Source: Phoronis australis (lineage: Eukaryota > Animalia > Phoronida). From it: a stretch of DNA of 64,000 nt. Both the position numbers and the translations under genes were made by a program. The notes under the pieces are model-generated. The model did no database searches and was not told the DNA's origin. It was given only the letters and a program-made list of their open reading frames with translations. Positions 15,214 to 64,000 of this stretch are shown one piece after another. Where the stretch lies: contig NMRA01000388.1 in the NCBI GenBank assembly GCA_002633005.1, forward strand, positions 1 to 64,000, given 5' to 3'. Within the stretch, counting starts at the first letter, position 1; each line of letters opens with the position of its first letter.

Positions 15214-15531
15214 AACAGATTAAGTTTGAATCTAATACTGGAATGAAAACTTACAAAAATTAGCGACGTTGTGTCCGCATCTCACGGACTTCAGCTTGGT
15301 TTGTGAGGTTATCATTATTCTAGCCAATTGGTGGCGTTTTGGCTAAACTGTGCGGCATTGACGACAGTACACCATCCCATACGTCAATGCCGCGCCGTTT
15401 AGCCAAAACGCCACCAATTGGTCAGAATAACGATAACGTCACAAGCCAAGCTGAAGTCCGTGAGATGCGGACCCAACGTCGTTAATTTTTGTAAGTTTTT
15501 ATTCTAGTATTAGACTCAAACTTGATCGGTT
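15214..15531. repeat. Long inverted repeat (foldback/MITE-like), ~150-bp arms with an 18-nt loop
   Basis: 15214-15363 is the reverse complement of 15382-15531 with scattered mismatches (e.g. ccaattggtggcgttttggctaaac / gtttagccaaaacgccaccaattgg). Confidence 0.93.
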
Positions 15532-16323
15532 TTCTTAACTGGATGTCTCAAAATTTTCATGCTTACTGTAGTAACTTTCATCATTTCTTATAAGTCCAGT
15601 TGAAAAGTATCAGTTAATTTCATCGAAAACTTGAATATGCACAACGCCGCTTAGTGATCGCTTGTTTAGTTTCTTTAAATTAGACTAAGGGCCAGTTTTG
15701 TCAAACCACAAACCTAGTCATAGCCAAGTGACATGTACTTTGTTTTGAATTTCATTCTGGCAATATTTTAAGCGCATTTGTCCTGACTATGAGTGAACTT
15801 TATGATTTTTAAAAAAATTGATCTCTGTCAGTTAAAACTATGATGTGTAATGTGAATTCTAGTCTGTCAACTCAAAGTTTGTGCGAATATTTGTACCTCT
15901 TGATAAAGTCATATTAATTTTATTGCCAGTCTGTTGTCAGGTAATGTTGTCTGGACTGCTCAAGACTGTCACTTGTCTCTGCTATTCAATCCGTTGTGGA
16001 CCACTAAGTGTAGAGGTCAAAAGTTTAAACTGTAAGGTCACTGAGGTGACTTAAAACAATGTGACGACAGATCAAAATACAGAATGTCAAAAATGTCCAG
16101 GTTTTACAAATCAAAGCCATATCACAACATTTGGTGTAATACTGAATGCATTTGTTAAATCTTATCAATAGATTTTCAGTTTTTACATTTTTAGGCTTAC
16201 AAATGAGCAACTTTGATGTCTGTTGTTATAAAATTTGTTTCATTCCAGTGTTAAATGAGCTCAACAATTTTACTTTGCCAAGGACAACTTTCTTTATCTG
16301 GTGTAGATTTCAAATGGAAATGC

Positions 16324-19567: not shown

Positions 19568-19708
19568 TTACGAGAAAAATCGTTGCACTTTTGACGTTAG
19601 CAGGCGTATGAACGATGACGGGAACATGGAGCCTGATACGTCGGCGTACTTGAGGTAATTATAGGGAGTGGCAATGACTTCCAACAGAGCTGCAAGCAAC
19701 TCGCGGTC
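19568..19708 (-). CDS. SCUBE: SCUBE alternative last exon T3 (most similar to the canonical SCUBE C-terminus)
   Basis: attttcag|[46 protein letters not shown]. Confidence 0.9.
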
Positions 19709-22700
19709 CTGAAAATAGATTAAGAATTGGTCAGAAAAGGAGGGAATATAAAGGCAGGGAGAACCGTATGGCACTGGCACCACCAAAATTGCCACTCTGA
19801 CCACAAAGCTCATCCCTAGGACCAGTGAACCTTTAGCGTCTTAGATCTGAGTGAATCACTGTCTTGCACGTCAGCTTAGCAGCTACTAACTTGTCTCAAG
19901 AGACCATCTTTTCTTGTTGTGTCGGAGTACCTTGGTCACAACTTACTTTCATACAATCGGCATGTTGTTTCTCAGAACTTAGAACTATAAGATCACAGCC
20001 TGATTAAGTTTTCTTTCTCCCAAACACCAATTCCTGGTTAACAGGTAGCACGTGATATGTAACCTTACACCTTAACCATTCCTTTAACAGTATAACACAA
20101 TTGTGACAGGTACTGAATTTTATTTGGCTCAGTTTTCACATCTTTCATCAAGTTGCGTTGTTGATGAGAAATATTGCAATTTCGGGCAACTTGGTTAGGT
20201 AAACATACTCATAATCAAGAACAAAGTACAAAATGACACAAAGACATCTGAGTGAACGTACATATAAAACTTTATTTCATAATACTTCAATTGCACGTGA
20301 TAAACTGAACACTTGTATATTTACAACGACTACGTCAGCAACATAATGTTTAGAGTCCCGTCGACACACATAGTTCCTACTCGTGAAAACAACTAGCAAT
20401 TATGACAAGTGACTATGTCATTTTAAAGTGCACAAGCACTCACAATCAGAAATATCTAATGTTAAGTACATAACTACCAGTTTCAACAGATTACAGAGTC
20501 AAATAACTGCCCACAGCTAATATCAGCTCATTACGGTGTTTTCCCGTTGCTCCCAACTTGTTTGATTCTATAGCCCAACAACAAGTTGGGAAGATGACCC
20601 ATGTAGCCAATATCTTACACGACTGATTAACTCCATTTGGACATTTATGGTTGGAGGGCCAGCTCCCTTTTGTTCAATAATTGCTCTTATTTCCAATAAG
20701 ATCAAATCTAGCCTGACTGGGCTGTGCTGTTAAAAATAAAAGTTAAGTTATAACATATCTGAACATAAACCAATAGCATTTCTGAATTCGTCAAAAGCGG
20801 ATCATGTTTAGTTTTTGAATGGCAAAATCGCCCAACTACAACCTAAGTTACAACAATCAATTCTTTCCGAACCTACCAATTTGCTCTGGGTTTGACCGAG
20901 TTCACACATGGTCTATAATAAGCCTGGTAGATAATTGGCCTGCCTGTTGTCATACCAGGCAAAAGACTGTGCTTGGCAGTTAACAAAGGAGCTATCTGAT
21001 GTTATCACACCCTCACAACCCTCTAGGTCTGGTAAAGTCAGTGACCGGGAGAACACCGTAATGTTACAGTTGGATGGAAACAATGGCTCAACGGCCTTGA
21101 AGTCCTAATATTGCGTGTAAGACAGTATACAAGTGTAAAAATTCCAAGTAAAAAACATTAAAGCATTTAATAAACCTGTTTATACTACATGTACGTATGT
21201 ATAACTATATTAACNATGTTTAGTTTTTGAATGGCAAAATCGCCCAACTACAACCTAAGTTACAACAATCAATTCTTTCCGAACCTACCAATTTGCTCTG
21301 GGTTTGACGAGTTCACACATGGTCTATAATAAGCCTGGTAGATAATTGGCCTGCCTGTTGTCATACCAGGCAAAAGACTGTGCTTGGCAGTTAACAAAGG
21401 AGCTATCTGATGTTATCACACCCTCACAACCCTCTAGGTCTGGTAAAGTCAGTGACCGGGAGAACACCGTAATGTTACAGTTGGATGGAAACAATGGCTC
21501 AACAGCCTTGAAGTCCTAATATTGCGTGTAAGACAGTATACAAGTGTAAAAATTCCAAGTAAAAACATTAAAGCATTTAATAAACCTGTTTATACTACAT
21601 ATACGTATGTATGACTATATTAACTTAATCTGCGTGTCACTGGATTCTTAGAAGGGACTGATGATTAGGAAAAAAGCGGACAATAAATTCTCTGTAAGAG
21701 CCTAACATAATTGTACTTTAAACAAATGTAAATCAACCATCCATCAAAAATTTTTTTGTTTTATGCCACCTACCATTTGAAAAGTGGTCTGAACTCTAAT
21801 GCTTACAAAGCTTGCAAAGAACTGACAGCACACTGCTCGAAAAGTATGCTTAATATTCTATATCAGTGTGACTGGCCAAATAGGCTGATATCGAGGCCAA
21901 GCACTATTGAGACTAAGCACTCATTTGCCACCAGGATGCTTTTGGTGCATAAAATGCATTGGCGCAACAAGCCAAGTTATTTGGCCTGCTTTTGAGGAAT
22001 AATGAATTTGTCCGTTATTCTTCAACCAGAAAATCACTACCAACTCAGCACAACTAATAAGTTGATGTAATGAACTATATAGCTTACCAGCATTACCAGA
22101 GATCAAACGTCTTATATAGCATTTTAAGTATTAATTTTAGACAGCCATATAGAACTTTATATTTGTAAGATCGTTTGACTTTTTACAGAGATTGCCTAAT
22201 TTCCAATAACATAATTTTTTTCACTTGATACTTGCAACTTCCATTTTTTATTCATAAGCAACTTTATTCCTTAGCTACAAACGTGTGTCTGGGATTTTCT
22301 TTCAAGGCCTTTCAGCCCGAGAACTCCATTGTCAAACATGAAAATGTCAACATTCCTAGAAAAAATGAAAATTTGATTTTTGAAAGTTGAGCTCTCAGGA
22401 TACAAGACCTTAAAAGAAACTCCAGGCATGCTTTTGTAGCTAACAAAATAGAGAAACAGAATTTGCAAGTTTCTTGCAAACAAATTCATGTTTTTTGAAA
22501 ATGTGATGATCTCATTAAAATGGTGATTTTTGAGATAAAAAACGCAATCATATGATTTTGAACACCTGGGCATTGCTTTCATGCACATAATATTCTGTGA
22601 CCATCAAGGATTTTAAAAACAAGGCATACAGTTTTATGGGTCTCTATTACTAGTTTAAAAGTTATTAAAGAAATTTAATCTGTGCTAACAGAAAGTAGCT

Positions 22701-25700
22701 TATTGCCTTAGTGGCCAAAATGAAAAGTTTTTGATAGATGGATGTATATGGCAGCTATGATGATAGCCTAATGACAACACTAATGCACAGCTAATTCAGC
22801 TGGAAGTATCTGTTTACAATAGTTAGCATGCTCCAATGGGTCATGCTCTTAATAGTAATTAAGTTCAGCTGTCCCTTGGCCCATCTGCAGGCCTCTCCCC
22901 AGTAACACCATGAGGACAAAGGTAAACATAAGACTAGACATATTTGACTTTGCTTTATCTTCTCATCTACAAAATACAGTTGGCAGAACCCAAGACCAAC
23001 GGTGGTGATAAAAAAATCAGTAAAAGAAAACTACAGAAATTCTTGGCTTATTCCATACAAATTTTATTGATAAAACTGTCATTTTTTCAAAACTTTAAGG
23101 GGAATTGTCTTGTTGCAAATTATAGTCACTTTGCATACTGTTATTATACAACATCTAGACAACATAAACCAGCTTGAAATAAACCTTCTTGGTCTTTGTA
23201 ATTGTTAGGGGATTTGGCTAAATTAAACTTCACTTGTCCGCCATATTGTGTGCTAAACAGGTCAAGAATTACTATACAGTAGATGCATTGCTGAATCAAA
23301 CCATGGCTTCCTGCTTCCTTTTGACATGTTTTATGCAATAAAGAACTCCATGAGGTGACCAGTCATTCATTGGCAATAGAGTACACAGTTAACATGCAAA
23401 ACCGATAGATTTCAGCCAAATCACACTTAATATAAAAATACTATTACTGCGTTAAAGAATAGCTATCACTTTTTCAAATTTTCCTACTTATTACAAATAA
23501 TGACCACCTCTGCATCAAATATAGAAATCTTGAAGGTAATTTACAACATAAAACATACCAAAGCAACAATCCGGAGGGTTTCTTTATCCTAGAAAGTTCA
23601 TTTGTTGACTCCATAAAATGCAATCATAGATTGTCAGTTTCTTCAATTTAGAACACAACATGGCAAGAAAATGGGAGTTTCATTTGGTCTAATTTCTAAA
23701 CAAAAATAAATACAAATAATTTTTTTATACAGCATTACCTATGCTTATACTCTGCAGTGTAGAATACAAACCGGCATGATGTCAAGCACATGTGGCGATG
23801 GAGAGAGCCACGGTAAAAAATGAGGGGCAATCATTTTGGGTAAAATGGGGATTTTGGCAATCATTTTGGGTAAAATTGAAGAACACAATCATAAACGGAC
23901 AAAACTAAGATTCTACACTACACCAACATCCTAAGACATAATACATTAAATACACATGAGCACCAAATAACAAGGTTATGTAACACTGTAACAGAATACA
24001 CACTTTCAACAGAGCCAGCACTTTGCTTCATTTACTACCCAGCCCATCTCTTAATACCACCATCACATTCCATGAAATCAGCCAATCAGAAGGCACTGAA
24101 ATAACTTTTGCATGTGAAAGCCATCTGATGACAAGCCCAACAATAAGCCAACATATATGCCATGCAGTTGTGAGACTGTTAAATCTAATTTGCGACAAGG
24201 CTTTGATCACGAAAAGACAAGTGATCATATATGACCAGTGTGCAAAGTGGCATGGCAAATACTTTTAAGCAATGGAAATAGATAAGACACGTTTTGCAAA
24301 AACTGTCCAATTCAGGTGCTGTCTGGTTAAAATCTACTTGACTGTGAATGTGGTATTAATGACACAGACAATGCTTTTTATACATTCACAGATATTTCAA
24401 TAAAACATTTATAAACAACAGAGTAATGTCTAAACTGAGTGCACATCATCCCTATAGATGAGACCACATTGCTTGTAAAAATATCCAAACCCATAGCCAG
24501 AGGGGCTCTAGGGGCAAAGGTCCCAGTAAAAGGAAAAGATATTCCAAGAAGAGATGTGACAGCGGGTCACTCTAGAACACGTAACCAGCAAAATTGAGTA
24601 CTGGTGACCACCAGAGGGTGTGTTCAAGAGTACAAGCTGTCTGTAAATTCCAAATTACATACCTCTACTCAGTAGCTGACTACGGCCTGTCATTTGAAAG
24701 ATCTTGAAGCGCATTTGTTGGATTTTACACATCTGACATTCATCAATCTCATTTTGAAATGTTACAACTTATGAACATCATTTTCATATTTTTCACAAAT
24801 GTGGCAGAAAATTTTCCCTTCACAACCTTATAATCACAAAATCTTTTGTCTGCACCGCAACTAAATACAACAAATGCACGCTTAATTCTTCTCAAAAAAC
24901 TTATTGACTTTCGGAGAAATTAAACCAATGAATGAAGAGCCTAGTTGTTCGGATTCATTCAGATACGTGAAATACTTAATGGGTGAGGCAGTTACGTCCA
25001 GAAGTTTGGCAAGAAGTGTTCTATCCTGTAACAGAATTGGGTCAACGTGCTAATTAACCACATGTAACATCCCATGTTAATTGGCCATACCCAGTTGTTT
25101 GCTTGCACAAGCCTATTTGTGACTGGATCATGTAAAGGGTCATGGCTTCCACACACAATGTGATTGTCTCTCATTAAGTTTTGGTTCTCTTCACATGTAT
25201 ACTTGAGTTAAAAATACACTATTAGGCCAAAAAACACAATTGGTTCCAGTCTTCCTTTTTTAGAAAGTTGATGTGAGGCACTGATGCGTGAGAGGCAGTG
25301 ACTTATTGATGGCAAATCATGAGGTGACTTTGGCCGACATAGCATCTAAAACCTTGCCTACATGAATTCGAGTGACTTTGGTAAAAAACGCTTGAAACCT
25401 CAGGGTGAGCCCTCTTTTCCGAGGCTTTTTGTTAACACATTGAGCGTAGACTTCAAAATGAGTTGGGGGCAAAGGCCAGAACCAACTAAACTTTTTAAAC
25501 CTCATCCACAGCAATTCTACATGGTAACTAGGATTCTCCTAGCTTCATTTCCACTACTGTGCCAAACCATTGATTATATGAAATCATACTTAGTAGAGTC
25601 TTGTAAAAGGTCAGTTTCTCAGAGCGTCGACAACATGTAAACAAAATACATCTGTTCGAGCAGGACACATAAGTTATCAGTGCATATTCAAAACTGATGA

Positions 25701-28700
25701 CAATTTGGATTCTATCAAATCTAAGAACGAAGGACCAAGTTGTAGCGAATCATTCATGTACTTGAAGTACTTTACAGGGGACCCTGTTACCTCCAGTAGT
25801 TTGGCTAGAAGACCTTGGTCCTGTAACAACAGTTTGTCAGAACACTGTGTATCCACACTTAATTTTGGTGATTCAACAAATTTTCCGTTTCTAGTGGACC
25901 TTCCAAAAGAACAAAATGTCATCCAGCTTAAAGGGGAATTCAATATTTTTGGCATTATCTATCTAAAAACACAAATCTCCAGTCGTTTTAGAGACCCATT
26001 TTCATTTGAATTACTATTTTCCTGGTCCTAAAATATACATGAAACAATGGTAAAACCATGAAGTTGTCCCAACAATGAGTTGCCCACATCTTGCCTCTTT
26101 ATTAACTTACAAACACAAAGTTTGTGTTTGATAGTGAGTCAGTCACTGTGTTGACTCGGTGAAAGCGAATGACAAATATGCATGGAAACTCAAGCTTGGA
26201 CGTGCTATGTTAGTTTACTATAGATACATCCACAGTTAATATCATGGACCCCAAGGGATGTACTTTTAGAAAGAAGAAGATAACATCAAACCACTGGCTT
26301 CCACTTTAAAAGTTTTCATTTGGTTTATGAAGTTAATGCTTTGTAATGCACTCAAGCTTACCTTAAATATCGCCTGGTGTTGTTCTGAGCTGTATAGACG
26401 GCCATCTTTCACTATGTCTTCAATAAGATTTTGATACTCCTCTGGAACCAGAAAATTTGAATTACATTTCTTATTTTTTGACATTTAATTTTGTAAATAT
26501 ACTTGCTATTGTAAGAGTGACATTGACAGATGACCAACCATGACTATTTAATAACACTGCAACAAAAAGATGACTGCAAATCTGTTCACAGAAATTGATC
26601 TATTGTATGACACAAGACTAAAGAATATCTATAGGGAAACGATGGGTTCACACCCAAATCTACAGTCAAAGTGCCTGAATTGGTCGCCGAGATCTCATCT
26701 TCTGAGAAGGAGATTCTAATCGTTCAGTCTATGAAATCCTGGTGACACCTATGATCTGCTGCTTGTGTGAAAATGCAGGCTGCAATTAATCAATGGAAAT
26801 ATTCAGATAAATAGTCTTTTTGGCAATAATGACAACCCAGTTTAATCATAGAATGAAAGAAAATCATTGAGCACAATGTGAGATGGCAATTTTCTTCCTT
26901 TTTATGATGAAACGCAAAATTCTTGCATGCAGTAACTTGGTACTTACCATCATATAAAACATATGGGATAGAAAATCCTTTGGCTGTGTTTTTCCCGTCA
27001 GATTTGAAAGTTATGTACAAGTTCCTGGAGCGAGCCACAAAGGCAATTGGTCTATCTGTTGACTCACAAGTCTCGTATGTCACCACTGAGTATTTTGAAG
27101 CTTAAAAAGAAAAGCAACACCAAAGTTGAATTCAGCAATGCCAAAATTGGCGGGCACAACATGTAAAATTATTTTTGTAGTCAGTGGTATCGCTGACATC
27201 TGTCTGTATCCCTTAAGTCCCATTAAGCAGAAGAAGTCAGTCACAAAACATTACAGCGTTTTCCCGTTGCTCCCAACTTGTTCGATTCTATAGCCCAACA
27301 ACAAGCTGGGAAGTTTACCCCTGTAGCCAATATCTTACACGAGTGATTAACTCCATTCTGGCATTCATGGTTGGAAGGCCAGCTCTCTTTTGTTCGATAA
27401 TTGCTCTAATCTTCAAAAAGATCTTATCTAGTCTGACTGGGCTGTGCTGTTAAAAATAAAAGTTAAGTTATAACGTATTTGAACATAAATTAATAGCATT
27501 CCTGAAATCCACGTCTAATGGTAATCATGTTTAGTTTTTGAATCGACAAAATCGCCCAAATGCAACCGAAGTTACGATAATCTATTCTTTCTGAATGTAC
27601 CAATTCGCTCTGGGAGGGTGCTCACATGTGGTCTGTAATAAGCATGGAAGATAATTGGCCTGCCTGTTCTGATAACAGACAAAAGATTTTGCTTAGCAGC
27701 TAACAAAGAAGCTAGATGTTATCACAAGTTAAGAACCCCTTTGTCTGGTAAAGTCACTGAATGGTAAAATGCTGTCATTAGTCCAGGAGCTGAGGTGAGA
27801 AGTATGCAGAGTTGATGGTTGAGAAGTAGCGCTTCAGAAACTGGCTGCTGAGTGAAGAGAACTTCTCTCATGTGGCATGAAGAATTTCCACTAATATACT
27901 ACACTATATGAAGACTTAAGTGACAGCACCTGCAGCAAATTTATCTGCCGGAAACGTGTATTAGTCAAATTCTGCGACATCTTGACCTTGCCTTTGTATG
28001 TGGCTCACTTGGCTGTATTGCATGTACGTAAATACTACTTACGCGCCTTCCGCATAATTAGCTGGTCACCGCATAAATCCTTGGATTCTAGGAATATCTC
28101 AGGAATAACAACAAGAATACGACGACCTTTTCCTGGCTCAATCCTCCACTTGCAATCAACATTGTTAGGATAGTTGCCTGGGTAATTTGGACTTTGAATA
28201 AAGCCTTGAAAACCTTTAAGAAATCCGCCACATTTTGTATCTGCAATAGAATACAACAAGGGTCAGAACCTTGGTTTTGACCTGTCCACAACTTAAGCTC
28301 AAATTGACGACTTTCAAATTACATTCCAGCATCAAATCATTGCTTTAAGTGAAAAACATCACAGCATAAAAGTAACTTTCACACAAAAGATAAGGATGGC
28401 ACAAATATTGATAGTAAACAATAGGCAGCTACCTTTGCAGTAGGAGGTATTAAGAGCACCCTCTTCATCTGTAGTTGTCTCCCCTGGGCAGTCTATACAG
28501 TAGTCAAGGCCTGGCAGTGACTGGTAGGTTCCGTGAGGACAAGAAGCACATCTACGCAAGCTCTTATCATAAAATTGTCCTGGCTTGCAGCTTTCTGCCG
28601 AGCAATGAAATCAAAAGCACAATTAATGTCTTTCACGTAATTTCTTTGTAAATCAGTAAACTACAAGGAATATTTATGTGTAAGTCGCATTAGATAAAGA

Positions 28701-31700
28701 CATTTTTACAAAAATCATTTGAAAAGAAATATGCACAAGATTTCAAACTGAAGAAAATCAAAATATGAGAGGTTACAGATCTTTTGTCACGTTCAATACT
28801 GAAATTTTTTAAAATAAATACAGAACGGTACGATGTAAACATTAACAAATGGCCATGATAATTTGAAAATATATTTATACTGAGTGCTGATTCTGCAATG
28901 AGTCGAAAACTTCTCTAACTTCCGAGGTTCAACAATCTGAAAATAACACCAAGCTCTACTACAATCACACGTCTACTTAAACAAGTAGGTCAATTCGTCT
29001 TATTTGATGACTTGATTTTTTGTGATTCGCAAAAGTAACCTAACATTCGACGATAACCATGGAGTGGAACTGGATGTCCCAAATAGCCACACAGAAGAAG
29101 CAGCACTCAATATAGCTTTTAATTATCCTTCGTCTATTAAAAAACCTCTCAAGCAGCCCAGTGAAGTATCACAATTCCACAACGGCATGTCTACCTTGCA
29201 CTGCGCAGTCCTGGAAGCTTTTTGCTGCTGGAACTCTGGTGGAGACTCGTGGACCACAAGAAATACAGTGTGTCCTCCCATACTCAGGCTGGTACTGGCC
29301 CCGAGGACATGGCATGCATTCCTCAAATCCATCAGAGGAGTAGTATCCAGGCCTGCACCGACCTGAAAAAACAACATCACTGGTTCAGATTAAGTAATGT
29401 ACGCGTGCTATGACAAGGGTGAGGGGTCAGGTTAAACATCAACAATTCCCAGGCAACACCAGCCTAGGTACCATATGCTTTCTGTTGTTAGGATGGAAGA
29501 GTGGAGTGCACGCCCATCCAATGTTATTTCAAAAATGAAGTCAGCAGACAGCGTTTCCTCAACATACTTAGGGCTTGAAGGGAGTCACTATTGGCTCAGA
29601 ATATTGCAGACTCCTTGTAATGATCATGGGTGTCCCTCACACACGATAGGCCTTTTGAAATTGACATACAATGTCAGTGAAAGCAGTTCTTTGTGAACCC
29701 TGCTCTAATGAATCTGTCCCAGTTGGACTGTGTAACTAAACACCCCTCATGATGCTGACGGACTTTCTCGCTCTGGGTTGTCCGACAAAGTCCACTGAGA
29801 CAAAGACGCCGAGTAATTCTGGAAAGCATGCAGTAACCTGGAGTCTTCCTAAAAAGCCAGATTTTGCAAGCTATGTCGCCGCGTGTTTTTGACGGGACCA
29901 AGTGATTTGGATGAATTTCTCGCCATGAGTTAGTTATTGAACGATCCCCATAAATACCATGTGACAAATCTATGGCTTTGTCATTAATAACACGCACTCC
30001 CCACTGGCAACTGAACTGTTACTGCGTATTGTTAGGATGCAAATAGAAAGCTGTTGCACCCGCATTCGCAATTTTTTGTGGCCACAAAATTCGACATCTG
30101 ACCACGCACTCGGAGGGCACAAGGGTGACTCGCTAATACTTGCTTCCCGCCGTTTCGCACACTCTCGACATTGTAGCTGTTTCTGTCTACTCACTGTTTG
30201 CTGTACAATTTTAAAGTTAATCATGTTTCAAAATAAGAATAGAAGTGGCAATTGGTTGTCGAATCCCTAATGCGGTACAGCACAACGACATCTTGTGTTT
30301 TTTACGATGAAGCTTTAAAGTTAGTACAGTGGAATGTTAGTCCTGTCAAGTGACAAAGGTGGCACTTTGGTAGGGTAGGTTGTCACGCTGATCTAAAATA
30401 TTTTCCGACCACAAACTAGCCGAGTCCAGACTAATTACCTTAATGTGAAAGCAGCTTATTATTTTGTTTCCTATTTATGCTGACCCATAATTGTTTATAG
30501 ATGAATGGCTAGTTTTTTTTAACTGATCAATACTTAATTGCCTGATAGTGCTCAACAGGAAGTGGGTATTAGGATCAGCCTGATAAGCAGTGGTGTACAG
30601 GATTCAAGTCACCCCATAGTGTTGCTCAGGCAGGTTAAACAGGACATATTAACAAAGTAACAGCAGTTGCAACGAGCGCACTAGTCTCAACTGTTGCAGT
30701 TCTCAATTACAATTTTTGCCAACCCATCCCTGTTCCCCAACCCAATCAAAGGAAGCTGGTCATAAAAAGCCACGCGCTGTGGTAAGTGCATAGTGTTATC
30801 TCAACATGCAAGAAGCATTCATAGTTGTTAGTTGGGAAATGCCAGGTATAGTACTTAATGATCCTGCAGTATAGACTAACAAATGACTTATCTTTACCTT
30901 AAAATTCCAGAAGACTAGCTATCAGTTTGTTTTTATTCACACCACAATGAAATATAATGCAGAAAGGACGATGAAGTTTCGCCATAAGTTAAGTTTAGTA
31001 CTTTTTACCAAAACAGACAACCAATCAGAAAATGTTAAAAGCTCATTATCTCATCATCAGCTCAAGCAATCTAACTCAGTGCTGTCTTGTGATGCATATT
31101 TGATGATGACCTCTAATCCACACACATGCCTTACAGGGAGCTATTTTCAGTATCATGAACAGGATTGAATTGCTGATAGGAACGTTTATCTCAACAACAC
31201 AATGGCTACATACAGACACACACGCAAACCCACATGCACACACACACACATATAGTAGTCCGCTGAATTCAAAGGCCAGCACCCAAAATATGTGTAATCC
31301 ATGCACTCAGTGACAGAAATGCAGTCATTTTAACACAGACTGCATGCCATGTAAAACAGAAGTAGCATTTCAAGTTCTATGCAGCAGACATCACATCACA
31401 ATACTTTGAAAAATGAAAAAATGCTTGGCTTAACTGTAGTCAACGTCCGTGTTTGTGTTGCGAGTACCTACCTCCGCACTGAGACAAGTTCCGAGCCCCC
31501 TCTATGCCAGTCCCATCAGGACCAGGGCAGGGTCGGCAGGTCTCTTGTCCCTCCTTGTCTTGATATGTACCCACAGCACAGTCCATACACGTGGCTGATC
31601 CCCGGTCATAGTAAGTACCAACACTGCAGGCAACTGTAGAAAGATGAGATAGTACACATAAATTGCAATGACATCTTGGGCCACACTGAAGGTTTCCGAT

Positions 31701-34700
31701 GTACCTTGAATGCTTTGGAAACCCTAATAATTTTCAAAAAAATATGGACTCAAAAAACACCGAGGACACACTTTTAAAACACAAGCCAGAATAATGCAGA
31801 GATACTTTTTGTATAAAACGTCTACTAGGCACAGTTTTGTGGTAGACCGACTCAAGGGTCTGCAGGCCATTGAAGGACTGTCTGTCAAGACAAAATTGTG
31901 CCATTTTTTGAAATTCTTGAGTGCTTCAAATTCCGAAATTCTGATCAACGCATCTCACTAATTCACTAAGAGTACTTCCACCAGCAGCCACCAGATGTCA
32001 CTCACCACATCGATCTTTCACTAGCACCTCACCAACATGACAGGTTAACATCAGAACGCTGGATGGCTTGAACGACTTTTTGCTTACTTCATAGTCTTTG
32101 TCATAAATCCTGAAGAACAGAGAAAGTAATCTATGTTCTCTCATACCACACATCTATCAATCAGTAACGTCTGCCATACTCGCTACACCACATTTGAGTG
32201 TCATCTCTCCAAAGAATGCAATGAATGAGGGAGCACTTCTTGCTTCTTGAGCAGTACCAGTAATCCTACCTGAGGCTTGTTGAGCCAAAATACTAGGTGG
32301 CTCGTGTGCCTAAAAGTATCCCATAACAGAGCTCTTATCTGAATGATCCGAATAACCCCCATGAATACAGTCAATTTTGATTAATGTCACAAATGAGAAT
32401 GTACAACTGCACCTGCAAATTATAACAAGCAGACATAAAAACAGACTCAATAAGTCGGCCAAAAAGGATGGTTCCATTTTTGAACACCAGAAGGAGTGCT
32501 AGTCAACCTTTTTAATACATAAAATGACCATCCAGATCAAGTCAAATTAATTAGCCTGAGTTAATTGTTAACGAACCACTAGTTCTCAATAAGTCCAGAA
32601 AACACTTGTAATCTGAGACAGAACACACTGTGGCTCACCTCACATGGAACTTCTCCTTGTTGATAGATTTCCGAAGCATCCTTAAGGTCTTCTTAATTCG
32701 TCTCTCCGTCTTCTTCCGAACACACGAGACATCACAATGGCCTGGACAGAGACATGCATGGTTTCAGCTTACCGACAAGCGCATTGAGGGATATTCGACA
32801 AACACATTGCCAAAAGTGTCCTTTTCTATTTTCATTCGGCCTCTAACATTGGTGCAATGCCCACAGTTTTGCAAATATTTTGTCATTTGAAAGCTACATT
32901 GCACAAGATTAAAATGGCAACACAAGATTAAAATGGCCATACATTCTGATGGGCATGAGCTGTCTCAAACATCTCTTGTGGTGATTTTCCTATGCTTATC
33001 TTTCAACAGACTGTATTTTTAATCATTTTCATGTTTACATCATTGATAAAAGACTACTTTCACCAACTCAACTCTCCTTTTTATCTCTGGAAACAGAGCT
33101 TCACTGATGCACGTTCTGTGTTGCATACGGACATATGCCGAACATAAAAATCTCTTTTAAAAATGGACCAATGAAATTAAAAAATTCCCTCCACCATCAT
33201 GTTATTTCCTAAACTGGTTTGACTTCACCATTATCTGTATTAGGAATTCCTGAGGACATGACAATATGTACTTAAATCCATTGGCATACGTTTGAAGATT
33301 TTTGCAAGGAGGTTCATTTTGGAAGAATTACCATGGGCTTATACTTATAGCATTAGAAAATGTAATACGGCTAGTATGACTCCAACACATTAAATATATT
33401 TTTTCTAAACAGCTTCTCAATGACAGAACAAATGCACACTGGGTCAATACACACTTGACAGTTAGTACATTAGTTATCATGACCTTACAGAGCCCCCTGA
33501 CACAGTATATTGATATTTGATATCAATATCAATATATTTGATATTGTGATTTAACTTGGCTTACTGTCAGTGAACAGAAGTCAAGTATACAGCCGCAGGA
33601 CACGAATCTCAAAATTAAACAGAGTAATCAATGATTATATTCTTTGCACCAGTGCTAGCAAACACATGGGCTTAAATGATAAAACCACCAAAGTGTGTAA
33701 ATAGAGACCCTGTCTGTGTGATTAACACCTTAATGGAAATTATAATCTCTAAACAGATTTTATTGCTAAATTTTACTAAATTCACATGCTCGCAATTAAT
33801 AACAGATTAGTAAAAAGCCATACACCAAATTCTACAGTCTTCTACTCTCAGAAAGTACATGCTTTGCTGAATCAACACCAAATTCTACAGTCTTCTACTC
33901 TCAGAAAGTACATGCTTTGCTGAATCAACACCAAATTCTACAGTCTTCTACTCTCAGAAAGTACATACTTTTGCTAAATCAAAACCTACAGTTTTCCATA
34001 AAATTTGCTAAATACACATACTCGTTCATAGGGCCCTACATAACCTTAGCAACAAAGGTATGTAGTAACTATATAGAACTATTAACAAGCTACAGACATT
34101 ACCTTTTCCTGCTGGATTTTTGGGTCTCATTTGCAGCTCAAACTCAGCAGTCATTATGAACTTCTGATCTCTCAACTTCAACCGTCTCATCTTCCTCCGT
34201 CCAGAGCCACAGTAAATGTCGACACCGTTGACGTCGCAAAGTTTCTCCGTACAACGGTACTTGCTGTGACCTGATTTTCAAAATCATGAAAACTGACTTT
34301 TAGCTGTTTTTTTTCAGGATACTGGACACAAAAAAATGTTGGTGACCAACAATTTTAAAACGAAACATGTGAAAATAAAAGTACTGTCGGTAAAAAATAT
34401 TTGTTTTAACCGCTCTCCCAGCCTTTACAATTAGGCACATAAAATGAACCTTCAGTCACTAGCCTGGTCTACGACCAGCTTACAACCAAAATAAATGAAG
34501 TCGTATTCTTGTTTTGCTTTACTCATTAAATTTTGAGTGAATTTTGGCAGGCACAGACGTGTTCTAAGAATGTCCAAGCTATCATAACACCTCAATTAAA
34601 TGAGCTAAGGACCGACAGGAATCTTTCTCAGATGCATTGTGCTTTCGAGATCCTACATAGAATTACCTTCATGTGACAGGGCTCATAAAACAGGGCACAA

Positions 34701-37700
34701 TTCCAGCCAGGATTCCTTTGAATCCAAGGTAAAAAGACCCAGGTGACACTGAATTACTTTACAATTTTGTAAAAATTCAATTGAAAATAATTGGGCAAAA
34801 TTGTTATTTTTAAACATTTTCCAAAAGTTCACTGCATCGACCCAAAGTACTCTAAATTTCACCATGACAACTGCGCAGTGGTAACTCTACTAGTAATGGA
34901 GTAAAATTGTGTGGTAAGTTTTTGTTTATTGTTTGATGAATTTGACAACATAATTCTCATAGTTCTGCTGTATTGTGTTCAAAATATAAAGAGTTTTACT
35001 AAAGGCAAATTTTTCTATCTCAAATTTGCATAAGACAGCTACGTTTCACCATTTTTTAGTTATTATACCAAAGTACTACTAAAGCTGTTTTACCTGTGAG
35101 AATTTTCTTCAGATTTATCTGAAAATTATCCAAAACGTGCGTTTTGTTCATTCCATTGTGATACTGGCACTGTGAAGTAATGAACACAAACTGAGCCTTC
35201 CTCCGAAACGCTGGCGCTCGAACTGAGTCTAAAAGTAGAAAGCAAAAGAAAACTTTAATTCGCCGCTTCACCATTGCTTGCAAAGGTTAAATTCGCCACA
35301 TCATTGTTGTTTGCAATGCAGGAGTGAGGAATCTTTAACACAAAAAACAATAAAATCTGCACAAAACAGACATTTGCCAGCAACAGGTTAACCATGATGC
35401 TGCCTGGTTGTACTGTAAATTCCAATGCAAATTTACTGGTGCATATCTTGAACACTTGGATACTGTAACTACATGGCATCAGGGCAATTGATCTCAACTA
35501 AAGAAATCCTTTAATCTAAATCAGAATGGTCAACTGAATGAGAACTTGTACTACATGAGCTCTCTGCACTGTCTCCATTCCAGCATAGGAGTTAAGCTTG
35601 ACTACGTTCCCAAATTACCTGAACAGCTAGGAAGTGTTTGTAAGGCTTCGCTCTGATGCTCTGGTTTCCACATGTAGCTGGTGTGGGCACCACATTCTGT
35701 GGTGTAGGATGGCGGTTGTGACACAAAATGCGCCTGGTTGATACACGACACTGTACACCGCTGCACGCCTCTCGAGACCACACAGGATAAAGTGGCTTTA
35801 GCAGGGGTCTTCAGGGGTTGGCACTTCCTGTCAATGACTGTGCACCAGAAATAAACACATTTTGATTATTTACTTTAAGGTAAAAGTCAAGATGAAACTG
35901 AATTTAGTTTTTATTGGCTACACTGATGTTTACATTTACAGACAGGCATGCCAGCTTCGATAAGGCTTTGCTTTAAAACAATCAATAACCAACAGCCACC
36001 ATCTCACAAACAAGAAGTCCCAGAAATAAGCACTGAGTGACATTACAGACTTCATACAATATGAACTATTGGACAAGAAAAAATTACTAGGAGTATGAAA
36101 TCACTACATCTTTAGATGGGTTACTTACTTTCACAGTCTTTTTTATTTGGAAGCAGTCGGTATCCATGGCGACAATAACAGGAGAAGCTGCCATTTGTAT
36201 TCTTGCAACTGTGCTGGCATCCACCATTGTTGATGGAACACTCATTGACGTCTGAAAAACATATGGCATCTTAATGTAAACTATGACTTGGAAGACACAA
36301 CTGTTTGCAAACATAATCTCCTTTCAGTGATAAATCTCGGGAACTGTGTGTGTTCATGTTAATTAGATTCCTCAAATCACATTTCTCAGTTTATGGTATA
36401 TCCCTGTGCTTTAATGCTAACACACTCAGAGATATTAGATGTTTTGTGGCCACTTAGAGCCATAGATGATGCCTTCATGTCTAAAATGTAACTTTCCAAT
36501 GTTTTTACAAACTCTGAAAACAAAGACTTATGACCGGTGGTACGTCAGTTTACAGATAGAGTCTGTATAACGAGCAACGTCGAGCGTTGAAATGCGCCCA
36601 CAAATGCGTCGCAAACGGTGTGCTTTTAGGATTTATTTTTACCATAAAAATGGTCACTAGATGGCGTAAAAATGTACAATCCATCCAAAAACAGGAACAT
36701 GTCGTTGCTTCTTTAATAGAAAACTATTCACCATATTTCATAAAAATCTGTCTAGGAACTTCAGAGAAACAAAGAAAACGTAATAAAATGAAATTGCCAC
36801 TAGGGGATACAGCATTTGTTGGATCTGACTGAAAGTCGTTGTCGTCCCTTGTTAGCTTCATATAAATACACTTACTAAATTTAATATAAAGATCCTGCAG
36901 TGAGTTTAGGAGAAACAGCTATGGGCGCAAAACAAAACAAAACTACCACTAGGAGGCGCCACAGAAGTCAAAGTCACCATCATCAAATGTCCTCTTCACA
37001 CTGAGAACATATACGCCAATTTTTAAAACCAACCCTAAAATGATTTGGTTGATAGAGGGATGGATGCCACAAAACAGACTCAAAAACAGCAAAAATGGCC
37101 ACTAGGTGGCGCAACATACCTCTATTCCATCCGAAAACAGGAGGATACCATCATCTCACCAAAACTTTATAAAAATCTGTGGAGAACCTTTGAAGACACA
37201 GACTGGTAAACGTAAAAAACTAAAATTGCCACTAGGGGGCACACAAGTAGTCAGATCCATCTGAAAGTCGTCGTCGTTTGTTGTCAACATCACATAAATA
37301 GACTTGCTAAATCTAGGAAAGATCCTGAAAATGGTTTAGGAGATACAGCCATGCGCGCAAAAAAAACAAAACTGCCACTAGGAGGAACCACAGTAGTCAT
37401 TGTCAGACGTCCTCTTCATAGAACATACACGCCAATTATCCTGATAGCAGTTTGGTTGATAGACGGGTGGATGCCAAAAAAACAGACTCGAAAACAGTAA
37501 AAATGGCCACTAGGTGGCACAAACTACGTTGAATTCATCCAACAACGGGAGGACAGCATCATCCTACTAATAGGTGCCTATATACCAAATTCTATGAAAA
37601 TGCGTTGAGGACTTTTGAAGATACGGTAAACGTAAAAAAATAAAATTGCCACTAGGGGGCACACCGGTAGTCGGATCCGTCCAAAAGTTAGCTCATGCCG

Positions 37701-40700
37701 TCCCATCCACGAAAGGAACACATGCAAAATTTCATGAACATATGTCAAGGGGTTTTGGAGATAGAGCACTGGACGTTGGACAGGCGAAGATGACGGCATA
37801 ATGCGTCCACATATCAATACGTGGGTGCATAAAAAACAAGTAATGTCTTGGCATTTTAGTGAAACAGGCCCTGGCCTCTTTAGATTAAAAGTAATTTCTT
37901 GGCAACTCATACTTTGTACACCAACAGCAGTATGTCTGGTAGTCAAGTGGGGAAAGGTTGGTTCCATGACCAAACACTAGACGGAGTGACAAGTTATTGC
38001 CCATCTACTTTGACCAAGATGTTCACTTTTATAATAATATCCCCATGGCAACAGATTAATTTCACCTACATGACAGGAAAGCGTGAAACATCAAAAAAAT
38101 AAATTGCACCAGACTAATAATGATTTCCTACACATTTACTAATTTCATTGAAAACACATTTAAACTTTTTGTATGATAGCTTGATACAGTCACTCGTAGT
38201 GTTGAAATTCCAGCTGCTCACCAGAAGGAAGGGGATTGGTTTTCAACACAACGAACAACTCTATATTAAGCTTTCAAATAAAAGGTTTAGTCGTGTTTTC
38301 AATGAAGTTTGTGATAACGAAGGGCTGCTCATTTACTCTTTTGTATAATTCTTATTTTTGTAACTTGGACCACAATGAAAATAATTTCCAGTCATTCCTC
38401 GGCAACAGTCACTTACAGGAGTCTGCAGGATTTTGAGAACTGGTTTTCTTTACTGAACAACAGACATTAGACTAGTTCTGAGCTTCTGGGCCCCTGTAAG
38501 TGACTTCCTCATATTTCTGTATTATCCAAGCCATTCTTCACTATACCTTTACTGTCTTGTGTTGTGTTCTATGTGTGCAATGCGCTAATTGCGAATGTTG
38601 ATGTCATGATGGCTGAACCAAGAACATGAACATTTCATAAACTCTGTGCATCGGCACGTCTGACTTGATACGTACCTCCACAGTGAGTGACGCCATATTG
38701 TTCATAGCCTTTCTTACATCTACACTCGTAGCTACCTGGAGTGTTCACACAAATCTGATCACACGTAGAGTTCATGGAACACTCATCAATGTCTGGAAAT
38801 GAACAAAAAATGATGACCATAAAACAGCAGTCATCAAAATCGTACAGGAAGACCCCTCAAACGTCAGGGGATCGGCAAAGTGGAAAATCAAAAATGGACG
38901 CCAAAGCGACAGTTAATTGCATCCAATTTCAATAGGGTTTGAGCTACAGACAAAACACATGTTGCGTTGTGAATTTCATGTTGATGAGCAAAGAAATGAG
39001 ACAGTTACAGTACAAACAAAGCAACAAAAAAATTATGACAAAGCAACAAACTTGGTGAAAATTCTTGTCAAGCAAAAATACGCTCACATAAATCTAATCG
39101 CATGTTGTAATATGCTGGAAAAAACAGTTCATGGAACATTGTTCGGCACAAACCATTAGGCCACCATGATGCTAAATTGAGACCATTATCACTAGTTGCG
39201 ATTTAGTCACACACTGTGCAGCAGATTGGGCTGCCTCTTCAATGAAAATAAAAGTGCAATACCAGACTGCAAGACATTTAGTTTGAATTCCATGAACAAG
39301 AGCAATGCGGAGCATTGAAATGCGCCCACGAATGCATCGCAAATGGTGTGCTTTTAGGGTTATTTGTTTGTATCATAAAAATAGCTACAAAACGTACAAT
39401 CCATCCAAAAAAATGGGAACATGCCATATTTCATAAAAATCTGTCAAGGAACTTCAGAGAAACAATGGAAAACAGAATAAAATGAAATTGCCACTAGTGG
39501 GCACAGAATGCGTTGGATCCGCCTGAAAGTCGTCGTGCTCTGTTGTTATTATATCTTAATACAGCTATGGGCGCGAAACAAAACAAAACTACTACTAGGA
39601 GGCGCCACAGTAGATAGTCGCCATCATCAAACGTCCTCTTCACACTGAGAACATTTCAATTTTCAAAACCATCCCTTGAAGGATTTGGTTGACAGAGGGG
39701 TGGACGCCAAAACCAGGGTTTGAAAACAGCAAAAATGGCCACTATGTGGCGCAAAATACCTTGATTCCATCCCAAAACATCTCTTCAATAGATGCCTATA
39801 TTCAAATTTTATGAAAATCTGTTGAGGACCTTTGAAGATAGAGGTAAACGCAAAAAACTAAAATTACCACTAGGGAGCACACCAATGGTCAAATCTGTCT
39901 GAAAGTCGTCGTTGTCCATTGTCAACACCATAGAAATACCCTTGCTAAATTAAGTAAAGATCCTGCAAACTGTTTAAGAAATACAGTCATGAGCATAAAA
40001 AAAACCTGCCAACAGGAGGCACCGCAGTAGAAGTCGTCGGAAAATCATCGTCAGCCGTCCACTTCATAGTTAAAACATACATGCCAATTTTCACAATTAT
40101 CCTGAAAGCGGTTTGGTTGATAGACAAGTGGACGCCAAAAAACAGACTTGGAAACAGTACAAATGGTCACTAGGTGGCGCAAACTAGGTCGAATCCATCT
40201 GAACTTGGGGAGATAGTGTCATATCATTAAAAGATGCCTGTATGCCAAATTTTATGAAAATACGTTGAGGACCTTTGAAGATACAGAGGTAAACGTAAAA
40301 AAAATAAAATTGTCACTAGGTTGCACACCAGTAGTCAGATCTATCCTAAAGTCATTGTCCTGCGTTACTAATATCATATAAATACACTTACTAAATTTAG
40401 TAAAGATCCTGCAAATAGTTTAGGAGATACAGCCATAGGCGCGAAAAAAAATTGCCACTAGGAGGCGCCACAGTAGTTGAAGTCGTTGGAAAACCATCGT
40501 CAGCCATACACTTCATAGTAAGAACATACATGACAATTTTCGCAATATCCTTCGAGCGGTTTGGTTTATGGAGGGACGGACGCAAAAAACAGACTCGTAA
40601 ACAACAAAAATGGCCACTAGGTGGTACAAAATACCTTGAATCCATCCGAAAACAAAAGCATAGCGTCACCTCATGGCCTATGTGCCAAATTTCATGAAAA

Positions 40701-43244
40701 TCGGTTGAGGACCTTAGAAGATACAGAGGCAAACGTAAAAAACTAAAATTGCCACCAGGGGGCACAGCGGTATACGGGTCGGTCCGAAACTTGTCGCCCT
40801 CTGTCGTCAACCCCATAGGAACAAACCTGCCAAATTTCAATAAGCTCTTACAAGGGTTTAGGAGATACAGCCGTGGACGCCGGACGACGGATGCCCAGAC
40901 AGAGATGACGGCAATATGCAACCACATATAAATATGTGGGCGCATAAAAAGTACATTTTACGATAATATTACACTTATTCATCAAAACATCATTAGGCAG
41001 TACTGAGACTTGTCCACTCATAAATGCACAGACCAGCATTTATTAATCAAGACTTTCACTGTCAAAATTTGCTACTCACAGCACTTTGTACTTCATTAAT
41101 GGGTTCATACAAAAACCCGTCGTCAAAAAGTCTGTTCATCAGGAACACTGACCTAAAACCTTTTTGTGTGGCGCAATGCAATTACTGTTGATTTTTCCAA
41201 CACTGGCTTCAGAAATTGAATCACTTGCCAAAAAGTCAGATTAGGATCATTTTCACCAGAAGAACTTACTACCATAAAAATTTGGTAATAAATGTGATTA
41301 AGTTTTGGTTTTTAGGTACCCGTTAATGAAAGTACCCAGTAGTTCATTTGGTTTCAGTAACTTCTTGAACCATGGGAGATAATTGGCCTGTCACCAGTAA
41401 TGTCAGACAAAACACTATGGAAACGCTTAATTATAGATTGGTGTTTGCATTTAGCCTCAATTTAAAGACTGCAGTGGTCTGGAGTAGAAGCCGAATGGAG
41501 CATTTTTGAAATGTCGTTCTGTGACCCGACTCAAAAAGCAGAATTCAAACAAGTAGCAGGAACAGCATAACATCTGTCGAATAACTCTTTACTGTTGTGA
41601 GAGGACAAAAGCAACTTTCACTTGACCCAATTTATTTCAAATTCCATTGTCCAAGCCGGGCCAAGATGACAAAGACAAAACGCCATTTTTTCATTCATTT
41701 ATATTTTGTGATATTGGACATCTTTCAGTAATCATTTAAATATTACGATTAAAAAACGGACAGTCGCCGCACAAATAAAAAGTTCATGTTCATTCAACGT
41801 TTGGTCTATGTTTTACACATCATCAGGATAACTATATACAATAAGACAGCAATTCAGTGCTGACATTCCAGTCAAGTAACATCCATGTAGTGAAATGATA
41901 GCAGCAAGAGATACAGGCAATATTAGTAGTAAGGTCACTGAGCTCTGCATGTTATTCAGAGAACCAGCAGCATGCTGGTCCTGAACGGCCAATGATTTTT
42001 TAATGTACAGTAATTCCTTTATAGGTTCTTGACAGATAACACTAAATGAATTGGCTTGGTAATTGAAGCTAACACAATGCTTATAGATGTTGCTTTTGTC
42101 TGAGGTGTGATGTTCTCTCAGCCTGTCACAGAGGCTCACTCTGTGTCAGTCCAATATAGAATTCCTTGCAGTTATCACATTCAACCTTATGAACAACATT
42201 ACTATTGTTTAACAAAGGGATGGGTGACTTCAGTTTACACAGCATAATGGAAAGTTTAGGAAGAGGTTTGAAAACAACTATCAGCTCAACAGCTAGGTCT
42301 ATGCAATGCATAAACAAGATAATTAACGTTTCAATCTTATACTATTTCGCCCAGTGTAACCAAGAGAAAACTTTTTTATCTCAGGTCCAATAACAGCTAC
42401 GTTATCCACCTCATTCATTTTTGAAAGGAAGTGCCTTTTACAGCTATTCAAAAAATTCAGAGGGTAACCATTGGCACGCAATGGCTGAAAAATCCTAGCT
42501 ACGTCACTATCAAAATTTAAATGGGTAGAACAAATTCTCCAGGCACGGTGTAAAAAGCAATTGACTATAGACCTATCTTGTATTGGATCGGCACAAAACT
42601 ATCAAATTTAAGATAAAGACCAGAAAAAACTGGGTTTATGACACACAGATGAAACAACGGTGCTATTTCACATTTAACCAAGACATCTAGAAAGGGTAAA
42701 CACGACTCGAGCTCAGATTCACTGGTGAAGTTGATGGACGGATGCATATTGTTCATGTGATTGAAAAAGGAGTTGACTGAGTTCTTGGATAAAAACACAA
42801 CAAACTTATCGTCCGCTACCTATGCCGATTAAAATTGTGGTTTACAGTTTGTAGGACAACTAGCCAGAGCCTCAGTCTCAAGACTGCACATGAAAATATT
42901 AGCCAAAACTGGGCCCAGGGGTGAACCCATGGCTACTCCATCAATCTGACCATAAAAGTTTAAATATACCACTGCACAAGAATGGTAATTTGATGACACA
43001 ACAACCACAAAGAAGTCATCTCAATACCTTAAATCTCCACATTCAAGGCTTTGCTATTCAAAACACACAGAGGGTAATAAAACAGTTATCTTCTCAACCA
43101 CAACCCTAAACCCTTTGTTAAACTGCCTTTACTTACACAGGCCAACTGGGACAGTTGTATGCCTTAAGTCCCATTCACACACAGCCAACCCTTGAACAAC
43201 TTTCACTTGTGCAACTTACCCCACTTTTAAGTGAAGTGTCCACA

Positions 43245-43284
<40 letters not shown>

Positions 43285-63803: not shown

Positions 63804-64000
63804 CTGGTGATCCAACGGTAGCGGTGACAAGTATACACTACACTGTAGTTGTCTTATGATAATCGTGCTAAAAGCATTATACGGACATGCTGGGTTGTGA
63901 TGAGGACATGGTCCCGACCATTGTGTTACGCTGCAAACAATCACGCGTTTTACTGCAATTTCCCTCAGTTCCCAGTCACAGTCTCATCATGATTATTTAG

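What the first reader, a model, noticed from the sequence alone, without database searches (positions are those of the whole stretch)
19568..26441. SCUBE has three tandemly duplicated, mutually exclusive last coding exons, giving three alternative C-terminal tails
Seen: after the penultimate exon (..HQAIFK, phase 0, 26362) there are three homologous exons, each with a pyrimidine-rich CAG acceptor, an Asp first codon, 46-47 codons and its own stop. T1 (25820-25677) is [48 protein letters not shown]2 (25025-24882) is [48 protein letters not shown]3 (19708-19568) is [46 protein letters not shown]. Because each contains a stop, only one can be translated per mRNA. Established: vertebrate SCUBE1-3 end in one conserved tail (recalled as [35 protein letters not shown]..), and the C-terminal CUB region of SCUBE2 is needed for release of lipidated Hedgehog. 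Inference: this invertebrate gene diversifies the post-CUB amphipathic tail by exon duplication rather than gene duplication, which could tune ligand/lipid binding or membrane association. I do not know of this being described.
Basis: partly seen in the sequence, partly recalled or inferred. Interest (0 to 1): 0.9.

Follow-up and report, generated by a model that had tools for sequence, protein, structure and literature searches.

The report
Three alternative tails for invertebrate SCUBE
An invertebrate gene for the secreted signalling helper SCUBE carries three old, intact copies of its last coding exon; RNA reads show the standard copy spliced in and likely also the two extra ones, so one gene probably makes proteins with three different helical tails, a known way of diversifying proteins that database records also show for amphioxus SCUBE.

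Summary
A full SCUBE gene on the minus strand ends in three homologous phase-0 exons (T1, T2, T3), each with an AG acceptor, a branch-point-like motif and its own stop. T3 is the family-standard tail, and 5 RNA reads join the penultimate exon to it. No T1 or T2 junction reached the tool's 3-read listing threshold. Support for them is indirect: purifying selection between T1 and T2 (dN 0.36, dS about 1.6), and sense-strand depth that steps up at both acceptors and falls just after T2. T1 and T2 probably share one 3' end. The swapped exon is predicted to supply three helices of a small post-CUB helical domain. T1 and T2 keep an N-glycosylation motif that T3 lost. An amphioxus RefSeq isoform carries its own second tail, probably from a separate duplication. 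A role in Hedgehog or lipid handling is untested. Duplicated C-terminal exons are a known class, and this scan noted them before in other genes. I found no paper on it for SCUBE.

The parts
36124..59912 (-). Nine EGF-like exons of the SCUBE gene (outer bounds of the reading frames; splice sites not resolved; signal-peptide exon not located)
   Evidence: Nine separate frames each match Pfam EGF-type models; tblastn with SCUBE orthologues
32638..35865 (-). Spacer-region exons (approximate)
   Evidence: tblastn hits at 35835-35611, 35229-35095, 34274-34095, 32736-32638
31472..31640 (-). Cys-rich repeat 1 exon (upper boundary approximate)
   Evidence: Pfam Ephrin_rec_like E 1e-13; RNA joint 29360>31470; GT-AG resolved
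29195..29362 (-). Cys-rich repeat 2 exon
   Evidence: RNA joints on both sides; tblastn
28433..28594 (-). Cys-rich repeat 3 exon
   Evidence: Pfam Ephrin_rec_like E 1e-12; RNA joints
28043..28240 (-). CUB domain, first exon
   Evidence: RNA joints 28240>28433 and 27100>28043; tblastn
26948..27100 (-). CUB domain, second exon
   Evidence: RNA joints; weak Pfam CUB match on the fragment
26362..26441 (-). Shared penultimate exon, ending in phase 0; predicted to encode the first helices of the post-CUB helical domain
   Evidence: RNA joint 26441>26948 in X2 (7 reads), X3 (1), X4 (9); models of orthologues
25821..25862 (-). T1 acceptor region: CTGAC at -20, CAG; alignable with the T2 acceptor back to -42
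25677..25820 (-). T1, alternative tail (47 aa + TGA); most diverged copy; keeps the N-x-S motif
   Evidence: Sequence; selection; depth step at the acceptor; junction inferred from X3 depth arithmetic only
25026..25067 (-). T2 acceptor region: TTGAC at -20, CAG
24882..25025 (-). T2, alternative tail (47 aa + TAA); keeps the N-x-S motif
   Evidence: Sequence; selection, and two synonymous variants in X1; depth peak and X1 contig 24814-25024; junction not seen
24810..24834 (-). Inferred proximal 3' end shared by T1 and T2 transcripts; weak poly(A) hexamer ATTATA at 24834-24829
   Evidence: Summed depth falls from 16.9 to 3.9 to 1.1 across three runs, and the X1 contig ends at 24814; no poly(A) tail reads listed
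19568..19708 (-). T3, family-standard tail (46 aa + TAA); strongest pyrimidine tract, CTGAC at -26; lost the N-x-S motif
   Evidence: 5 reads in X4 run from the penultimate exon into T3; 82% identical to the Aplysia tail

Best explanation
One SCUBE gene has three competing splice acceptors after a shared donor at 26362; RNA shows T3 in use, T1 and T2 are likely used less often and probably end at a shared poly(A) site just after T2, and each choice is predicted to swap three helices of a small helical domain behind the CUB domain, which would change its surface (charge, glycan site) rather than its fold. History (inferred): the tail exon duplicated once to give T3 and a T1/T2 ancestor, which lost one codon and duplicated again. 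Choice (inferred): cleavage near 24820 removes the T3 acceptor and forces T1 or T2, while read-through lets the stronger T3 acceptor win. Each exon ends in a stop, so only one tail is translated per mRNA, and no dedicated exclusion device is needed. Function (inferred, about 35%): the tails tune binding to partners or membranes, possibly lipidated Hedgehog as for vertebrate SCUBE2.
For: Shown: intact acceptors, frames and stops. The penultimate exon joins T3 in 5 reads of X4. Selection: T1 vs T2 pS 0.66, pN 0.28, dS 1.58, dN 0.36, Fisher p 1e-4, bootstrap pN/pS 0.27-0.65; differences at codon positions 1/2/3 are 15/10/28 of 47. A neutral copy at d=1 keeps an open frame in 12% of runs without indels and 0.03% or less with them, and keeps 18% amino-acid identity on average, against 49% (T2) and 40% (T1) to T3. 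Both X1 variants in T2 are synonymous (identities from the alignment). The four columns invariant over 46 rows (P, Y, Y, K) include T1 and T2. RNA depth, summed over three runs: 1.9 in the intron before T1, 7.2 from T1 to T2, 16.4 over T2, 3.4 after it (rough p 0.02, 0.03, 0.005). In X3, depth falls from 2 to 0.06 at the T1 acceptor, which is 4 bases, or 2 reads x 2 bases; X3 has no depth in the intron bins from 25884 to 26345 and only one partly laid read, which fits two penultimate-to-T1 junction reads. Structure: the tail exon maps to three helices (pLDDT 88.5, pLDDT 80.9). T1 and T2 share a one-codon deletion and 10 residues against T3 and pair in the tree (support 85).
Against: No penultimate-to-T1 or penultimate-to-T2 joint was listed in any of 4 runs (threshold 3 reads; about 18-19% of each raw run was read). 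The X3 inference rests on 2 reads that may be one molecule. X2 has no read over the T1 acceptor bases. Unspliced reads occur at 26082-26345 in X2 and X4, and sense depth of 2-16 continues from 24450 to beyond 21700, so retention of the last intron explains part of the signal. The depth tests were chosen after seeing the data and rest on 4-20 read pairs. The X1 contig holds no penultimate-exon letters. dN/dS measures selection since the split, not use today. T1 replaces residues that are invariant or nearly so in the 42 other tails (F to V, A to G, V to L) and has lost the basic charge of the last helix. No T1- or T2-like orthologue was found.
Confidence: 0.72

Rival explanations
1. T1 and T2 were functional once but are now unused or nearly so. 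Only T3 makes protein, and the RNA over T1/T2 is a retained last intron.
For: Only the T3 junction was listed. Unspliced reads lie behind the donor, and sense coverage runs through most of the last intron. T1 has a long branch (1.75 against 0.34 for T2).
Against: Acceptors, branch motifs, frames and stops are all intact at dS about 1.6. Depth steps coincide with both acceptors. The X3 pattern fits T1 junction reads. Both X1 variants in T2 are synonymous.
Confidence: 0.13
2. T2 is a working alternative tail, while T1 is a relaxed copy whose use mainly gives a weak or regulatory product.
For: T1 has 7 lineage-specific changes against 3 for T2, several at conserved hydrophobic positions, and net charge -1. 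X1 has a contig over T2 and none over T1.
Against: 7 against 3 is not significant (p 0.34). Most T1 changes are conservative. The only junction-like depth signal is for T1 (X3). A filter leaves some contigs out, so the T1 gap in X1 proves nothing.
Confidence: 0.13
3. T1 and T2 are assembly artefacts or chance look-alikes.
For: The last intron holds one N-linked 411-bp near-identical tandem block, so the assembly is imperfect nearby.
Against: T1 and T2 are 62% identical to each other and about 50% to T3 in DNA. Independent RNA reads match the stretch at 99% or more. Orthologous proteins hit both with E of 4e-5 or less.
Confidence: 0.02

Closest known systems
C-terminal tandem exon duplication-derived substitutions (Martinez Gomez et al., PMC8373072; passages read)
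   Same: Homologous duplicated 3' coding exons swap the C-terminus through alternative poly(A) use. The paper counts 77 such human events, some with three or more C-termini, and in PRKCB the conserved residues anchor the arm while the variable ones cluster on a helix.
   Different: SCUBE is not named in that paper's main text (0 occurrences; supplements not read). Here two of the three copies seem to share one 3' end, and the protein is secreted.
Branchiostoma SCUBE RefSeq isoforms XP_078669577.1 (P0153) and XP_078669578.1 (P0156)
   Same: Identical up to the tail, with 18 differences inside it. The swap starts just after the same exon boundary, so this is the same kind of second tail in the same gene family.
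   Different: Two tails seen, not three. The second amphioxus tail groups with chordate tails (support 93) and has the chordate loop length, whereas T1/T2 are one residue shorter than T3, so it is probably a separate duplication. It is a database prediction, and I did not see its genomic DNA.
Vertebrate SCUBE1-3 (review PMC10214685; section 9 and passages read)
   Same: Nine EGF repeats, spacer, three Cys-rich repeats, CUB and a conserved tail. T3 is the orthologous tail.
   Different: Vertebrates have three genes, and the review mentions no alternative tail ('isoform' 0 occurrences). Function in lophotrochozoans was not found in my searches; one review calls the family vertebrate-specific (PMC9222137, passage read), which the database records contradict.

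Membership tests
SCUBE | N-terminal signal peptide | not tested
   The first coding exon was not located; the first EGF exon lies at about 59880 and the 5' end may be outside the window
SCUBE | Nine tandem EGF-like repeats | tested here: met
   Nine separate frames with Pfam EGF-type matches
SCUBE | Spacer, then three Cys-rich repeats | tested here: met
   tblastn; Pfam Ephrin_rec_like on the two repeats scanned; RNA joints
SCUBE | One CUB domain followed by the conserved tail | tested here: met
   T3 is 82% identical to the Aplysia tail
SCUBE | Promotes release of lipidated Hedgehog or binds growth factors | not testable with these tools
   Vertebrate literature only
C-terminal tandem duplicated exon substitution | Exons homologous to each other, in tandem in one gene, same phase | tested here: met
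C-terminal tandem duplicated exon substitution | Each copy intact and under purifying selection | tested here: met
C-terminal tandem duplicated exon substitution | Each copy spliced to the shared upstream exon in mRNA | tested here: inconclusive
   T3 seen directly (5 reads); T1 inferred from depth in X3; T2 junction not seen
C-terminal tandem duplicated exon substitution | Choice made through alternative poly(A) sites | tested here: inconclusive
   Depth drop after T2 and a weak hexamer; no poly(A) tail reads; T3 3' end not examined
Docking-site/selector RNA-pairing clusters (Dscam type; mechanism recalled, not from a call) | Intronic docking sequence that pairs with a selector before each exon | tested here: inconclusive
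   No pairing beyond shuffled controls; no related genomes for a covariation test

The most novel reading that the evidence does not exclude
The post-CUB helical domain is SCUBE's specificity module, and distant animal lineages (this lophotrochozoan-like animal and amphioxus) independently duplicated exactly its last exon to make switchable versions. Here the copies split ancestral features: T3 keeps the basic amphipathic last helix but lost the glycan site, while T1/T2 keep the glycan site and lose charge. Natural tail swaps would then show which part of SCUBE handles lipidated Hedgehog, and how invertebrates get from one gene a diversity that vertebrates spread over three.
Probability: 0.22. 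Interest if true: 0.68.

Novelty: new member of a known kind. Interest (0 to 1): 0.42.

Why it matters
The SCUBE tail is very conserved from molluscs to vertebrates, yet it has no Pfam model, no solved structure, and no assigned function in the papers I could read. A gene with three natural versions on one backbone, plus an amphioxus parallel, gives ready-made swap constructs to test what the tail does in secretion, cell-surface binding and Hedgehog or BMP handling. The splicing mechanism itself is ordinary.

Tried and rejected
No whole genome is held for this window, so T1/T2 could not be sought in sister species. The run search listed no holder on record as RNA; the raw-read runs came in by species label. 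Homologue searches for T1/T2-like tails found none: the profile search returned only Aplysia among 1375 candidates (a weak search, since it missed known relatives), and 0 of 272 fetched proteins carry the T1/T2 signature. The ESM Atlas gave no usable hit for T2 or for the Lingula helical domain. The PDB sequence search found nothing. Fold searches with the helical domain gave no clear match: Foldseek best E 2.5; VIA-align best Z 5.6, rmsd 3.3, 70 aligned, with HRDC-type bundles at Z 4.4-4.9. That is a common-arrangement level and shows neither kinship nor a new fold. The CUB-plus-tail model matched CUB domains only. RNA docking/selector pairing was no better than shuffles. The tree placed the animal only loosely: nearest row Lingula at 62% over 309 columns, no well-supported group, quick method, and several arthropod and priapulid rows badly trimmed. 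The AU test does not reject a clade of T1, T2 and the second amphioxus tail (p 0.19), nor T1+T2+T3 (p 0.46). P0215, with six tail-like stretches, is a repetitive spurious-looking frame and was set aside. I recalled that Wierbowski et al. 2020 tie lipid-dependent SCUBE2 function to a C-terminal helix; the paper is not held, and the recalled mutant name had 0 occurrences in the 15 listed papers, so I do not use it. No complex prediction was run.
Full report
OBSERVATION. The gene is a complete SCUBE apart from an unlocated first exon: nine EGF exons, spacer, three Cys-rich repeats, a CUB domain in two exons and a penultimate exon. RNA reads confirm five junctions among the last six shared exons. 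Resolved to GT-AG, these give one open frame ending in phase 0 at 26362. A tail profile finds three copies in the window and no fourth. The animal is not named. Its SCUBE is nearest to Lingula (62% over 309 columns) without a supported grouping, and its tails resemble lophotrochozoan ones, so I call it lophotrochozoan-like.

ARE T1 AND T2 FUNCTIONAL? DNA. T1 and T2 differ at 15, 10 and 28 of 47 first, second and third codon positions; pS is 0.66 and pN 0.28 (dS 1.58, dN 0.36; Fisher p 1e-4; pN reached pS in 0 of 5000 bootstraps). Both comparisons with T3 point the same way, with synonymous sites saturated. In simulation a neutral copy at d=1 stays open in 12% of runs without indels and in 0.03% or fewer with them. 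Both acceptors keep a YTGAC motif at -20 and align to -42, while the flanks beyond do not align. The two variants that run X1 shows inside T2 are both synonymous, a small sample. This shows long purifying selection. It does not show use today.

ARE THEY USED? RNA. Four runs were laid: X1 (contigs, RNA a guess) and X2-X4 (raw stranded reads of one study, about 18-19% of each read). In X4, 5 reads leave the penultimate exon and continue with T3's first 30 letters, so T3 is spliced in. No T1 or T2 joint was listed; listing needs 3 reads from 2 starts in one run, and the upstream junction itself had only 7, 1 and 9 reads. The indirect signs are these. Summed sense depth is 1.9 in the intron before T1, 7.2 from T1 to the T2 acceptor, 16.4 over T2 and 3.4 after it. 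Rough tests on estimated read pairs give p 0.02, 0.03 and 0.005, chosen after seeing the data. In X3 the depth goes from 2.0 to 0.06 at the T1 acceptor, which equals 2 reads times 2 bases, with nothing in the intron beyond and only one partly laid read. Two penultimate-to-T1 junction reads, possibly one molecule, account for that. The only X1 contig here spans 24814-25024, from T2's first bases to the point where depth drops, but it holds no letters of the upstream exon. Against: X2 and X4 have unspliced reads behind the donor, X2 has no read over the T1 acceptor, and sense depth of 2-16 continues down to 21700 and beyond, so retained intron or longer 3' UTRs contribute. T3's own depth and 3' end were not examined.

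ARCHITECTURE. There is no AATAAA or ATTAAA between T1's stop and 23068; only weak variants lie between T1 and T2, and ATTATA sits at 24834. With the depth profile, the simplest reading is that T1 and T2 are two acceptors of one composite terminal exon ending near 24820, with T2 inside T1's 3' UTR, and that T3 is a distal last exon. Exclusion at protein level follows from the stops. I found no docking/selector pairing above chance. Acceptor choice by competition and proximal cleavage is inferred.

PROTEIN. Models of a vertebrate CUB-plus-tail and of the Lingula post-CUB region give a compact helical domain of about 75 residues. The penultimate exon supplies the first helices and the tail exon the last three. 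The window's own isoforms were not modelled. No fold match stood out. T1 and T2 keep the four invariant residues and most of the hydrophobic pattern, but both change an Ile to Thr (hydrophobic in 42 of 42 other tails) and an Ala to Lys, and both shorten the loop before the last helix. The last helix has net charge +3 in T3, +2 in T2 and -1 in T1, and hydrophobic moment 0.61, 0.44 and 0.42. An N-x-S/T motif at tail position 23 is present in 40 of 65 distinct tail segments fetched, including the named mollusc, annelid and brachiopod tails except Aplysia's, and absent from the chordate, arthropod and Priapulus tails. T1 and T2 keep it and T3 has Asp there, which suggests that the copies divided ancestral features. 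Whether the site is glycosylated is untested. The human SCUBE3 disease variants p.Arg929* and p.Arg929Gly (PMC10214685, passages) fall, by my count from the review's CUB boundary, in the first helix of this domain. That suggests the domain matters but says nothing specific about the tail exon.

RELATIVES. I compared tails within 20 multi-member clusters at 90% identity. The lists were incomplete for the large clusters: 15 of 104 for Branchiostoma, 15 of 90 for oysters, 15 of 24 for Mytilus. In 1 of the 20, Branchiostoma, 1 of 15 listed isoforms (P0156) has a second homologous tail on a body identical to P0153 (0 differences before the tail, 18 within). The other differences were between species, were single residues or were non-homologous ends of partial models; one unnamed Logan cluster had two tail types that also differ upstream and in length, which I read as two species without testing it. 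In a 48-column tree T1 and T2 pair (85), T3 sits with Lingula (83) and the second amphioxus tail with chordates (93). Loop length agrees with separate origins, but the AU test does not reject a shared origin (p 0.19). Annotated isoforms miss rare exons, so single tails elsewhere are not proof of absence.

LITERATURE. Ten searches of the held library. 'SCUBE' with 'exon duplication' gave 0 papers, and the four-term search with 'alternative splicing' and 'amphipathic' gave 0. I read passages of PMC10214685 (plus its section 9), PMC4873810, PMC8373072, PMC9222137 and 10.1101/469239, and saw the others as search listings only. No supplements were read; the gene table of PMC8373072 could list a SCUBE. 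Subscription papers, including the main SCUBE2-SHH biochemistry, are not held. Earlier notes of this scan hold no look-alike of T2 and no SCUBE gene finding, but several other genes with duplicated last exons; I did not check those.

VERDICT. A real, old and selected triple tail in a SCUBE gene. It is a new member of a known class, with a database parallel in amphioxus. Use of T3 is shown, use of T1 and T2 is likely, and the functional meaning is open. Interest 0.42.

Noticed in passing
window 20529-21063 and 27249-27760: Two copies (84% alike) of a roughly 530-bp element with 18-nt terminal inverted repeats, MITE-like; very high RNA depth on both strands shows it is a high-copy repeat.
   Followed up: partly
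window 20804-21624: A 411-bp tandem duplicate, 98.8% identical, joined at an N; probably an assembly overlap artefact.
   Followed up: no
window 21700-24450, minus strand: Sense RNA depth of 2-16, highest toward 21700 in X4, inside the last intron. It could be a long 3' UTR of T1/T2 forms or retained intron; its end lies below 21700.
   Followed up: partly
P0153/P0156, P0022, P0036, P0021, P0007 clusters: Brachiopod, annelid, mollusc and amphioxus SCUBE records come in long (about 1170-1235 aa) and short (about 980-1030 aa) forms; the long amphioxus forms carry about 230 residues ahead of the first EGF repeat. Whether the window's gene has this part is unknown.
   Followed up: no
window 3346-3669, plus strand: A frame that by recall resembles an exon of methylthioribulose-1-phosphate dehydratase (APIP); seen, not tested.
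   Followed up: no
window 41816-42598, minus strand: Broken frames inside a SCUBE intron that by recall resemble a retrotransposon remnant; not tested.
   Followed up: no
window 6247-9588 and 36572-40950: A dispersed repeat family of 70-80% identity with several copies, some in tandem.
   Followed up: no
window 63399-63807, 15211-15534, 10856-10971: Long imperfect palindromes, probably foldback or MITE-type elements.
   Followed up: no
P0033, P0034, P0035, P0219, P0220, P0213: SCUBE orthologues are annotated in damselflies, a mayfly, a cricket, a shrimp and Priapulus, although a 2022 review calls the family vertebrate-specific.
   Followed up: no
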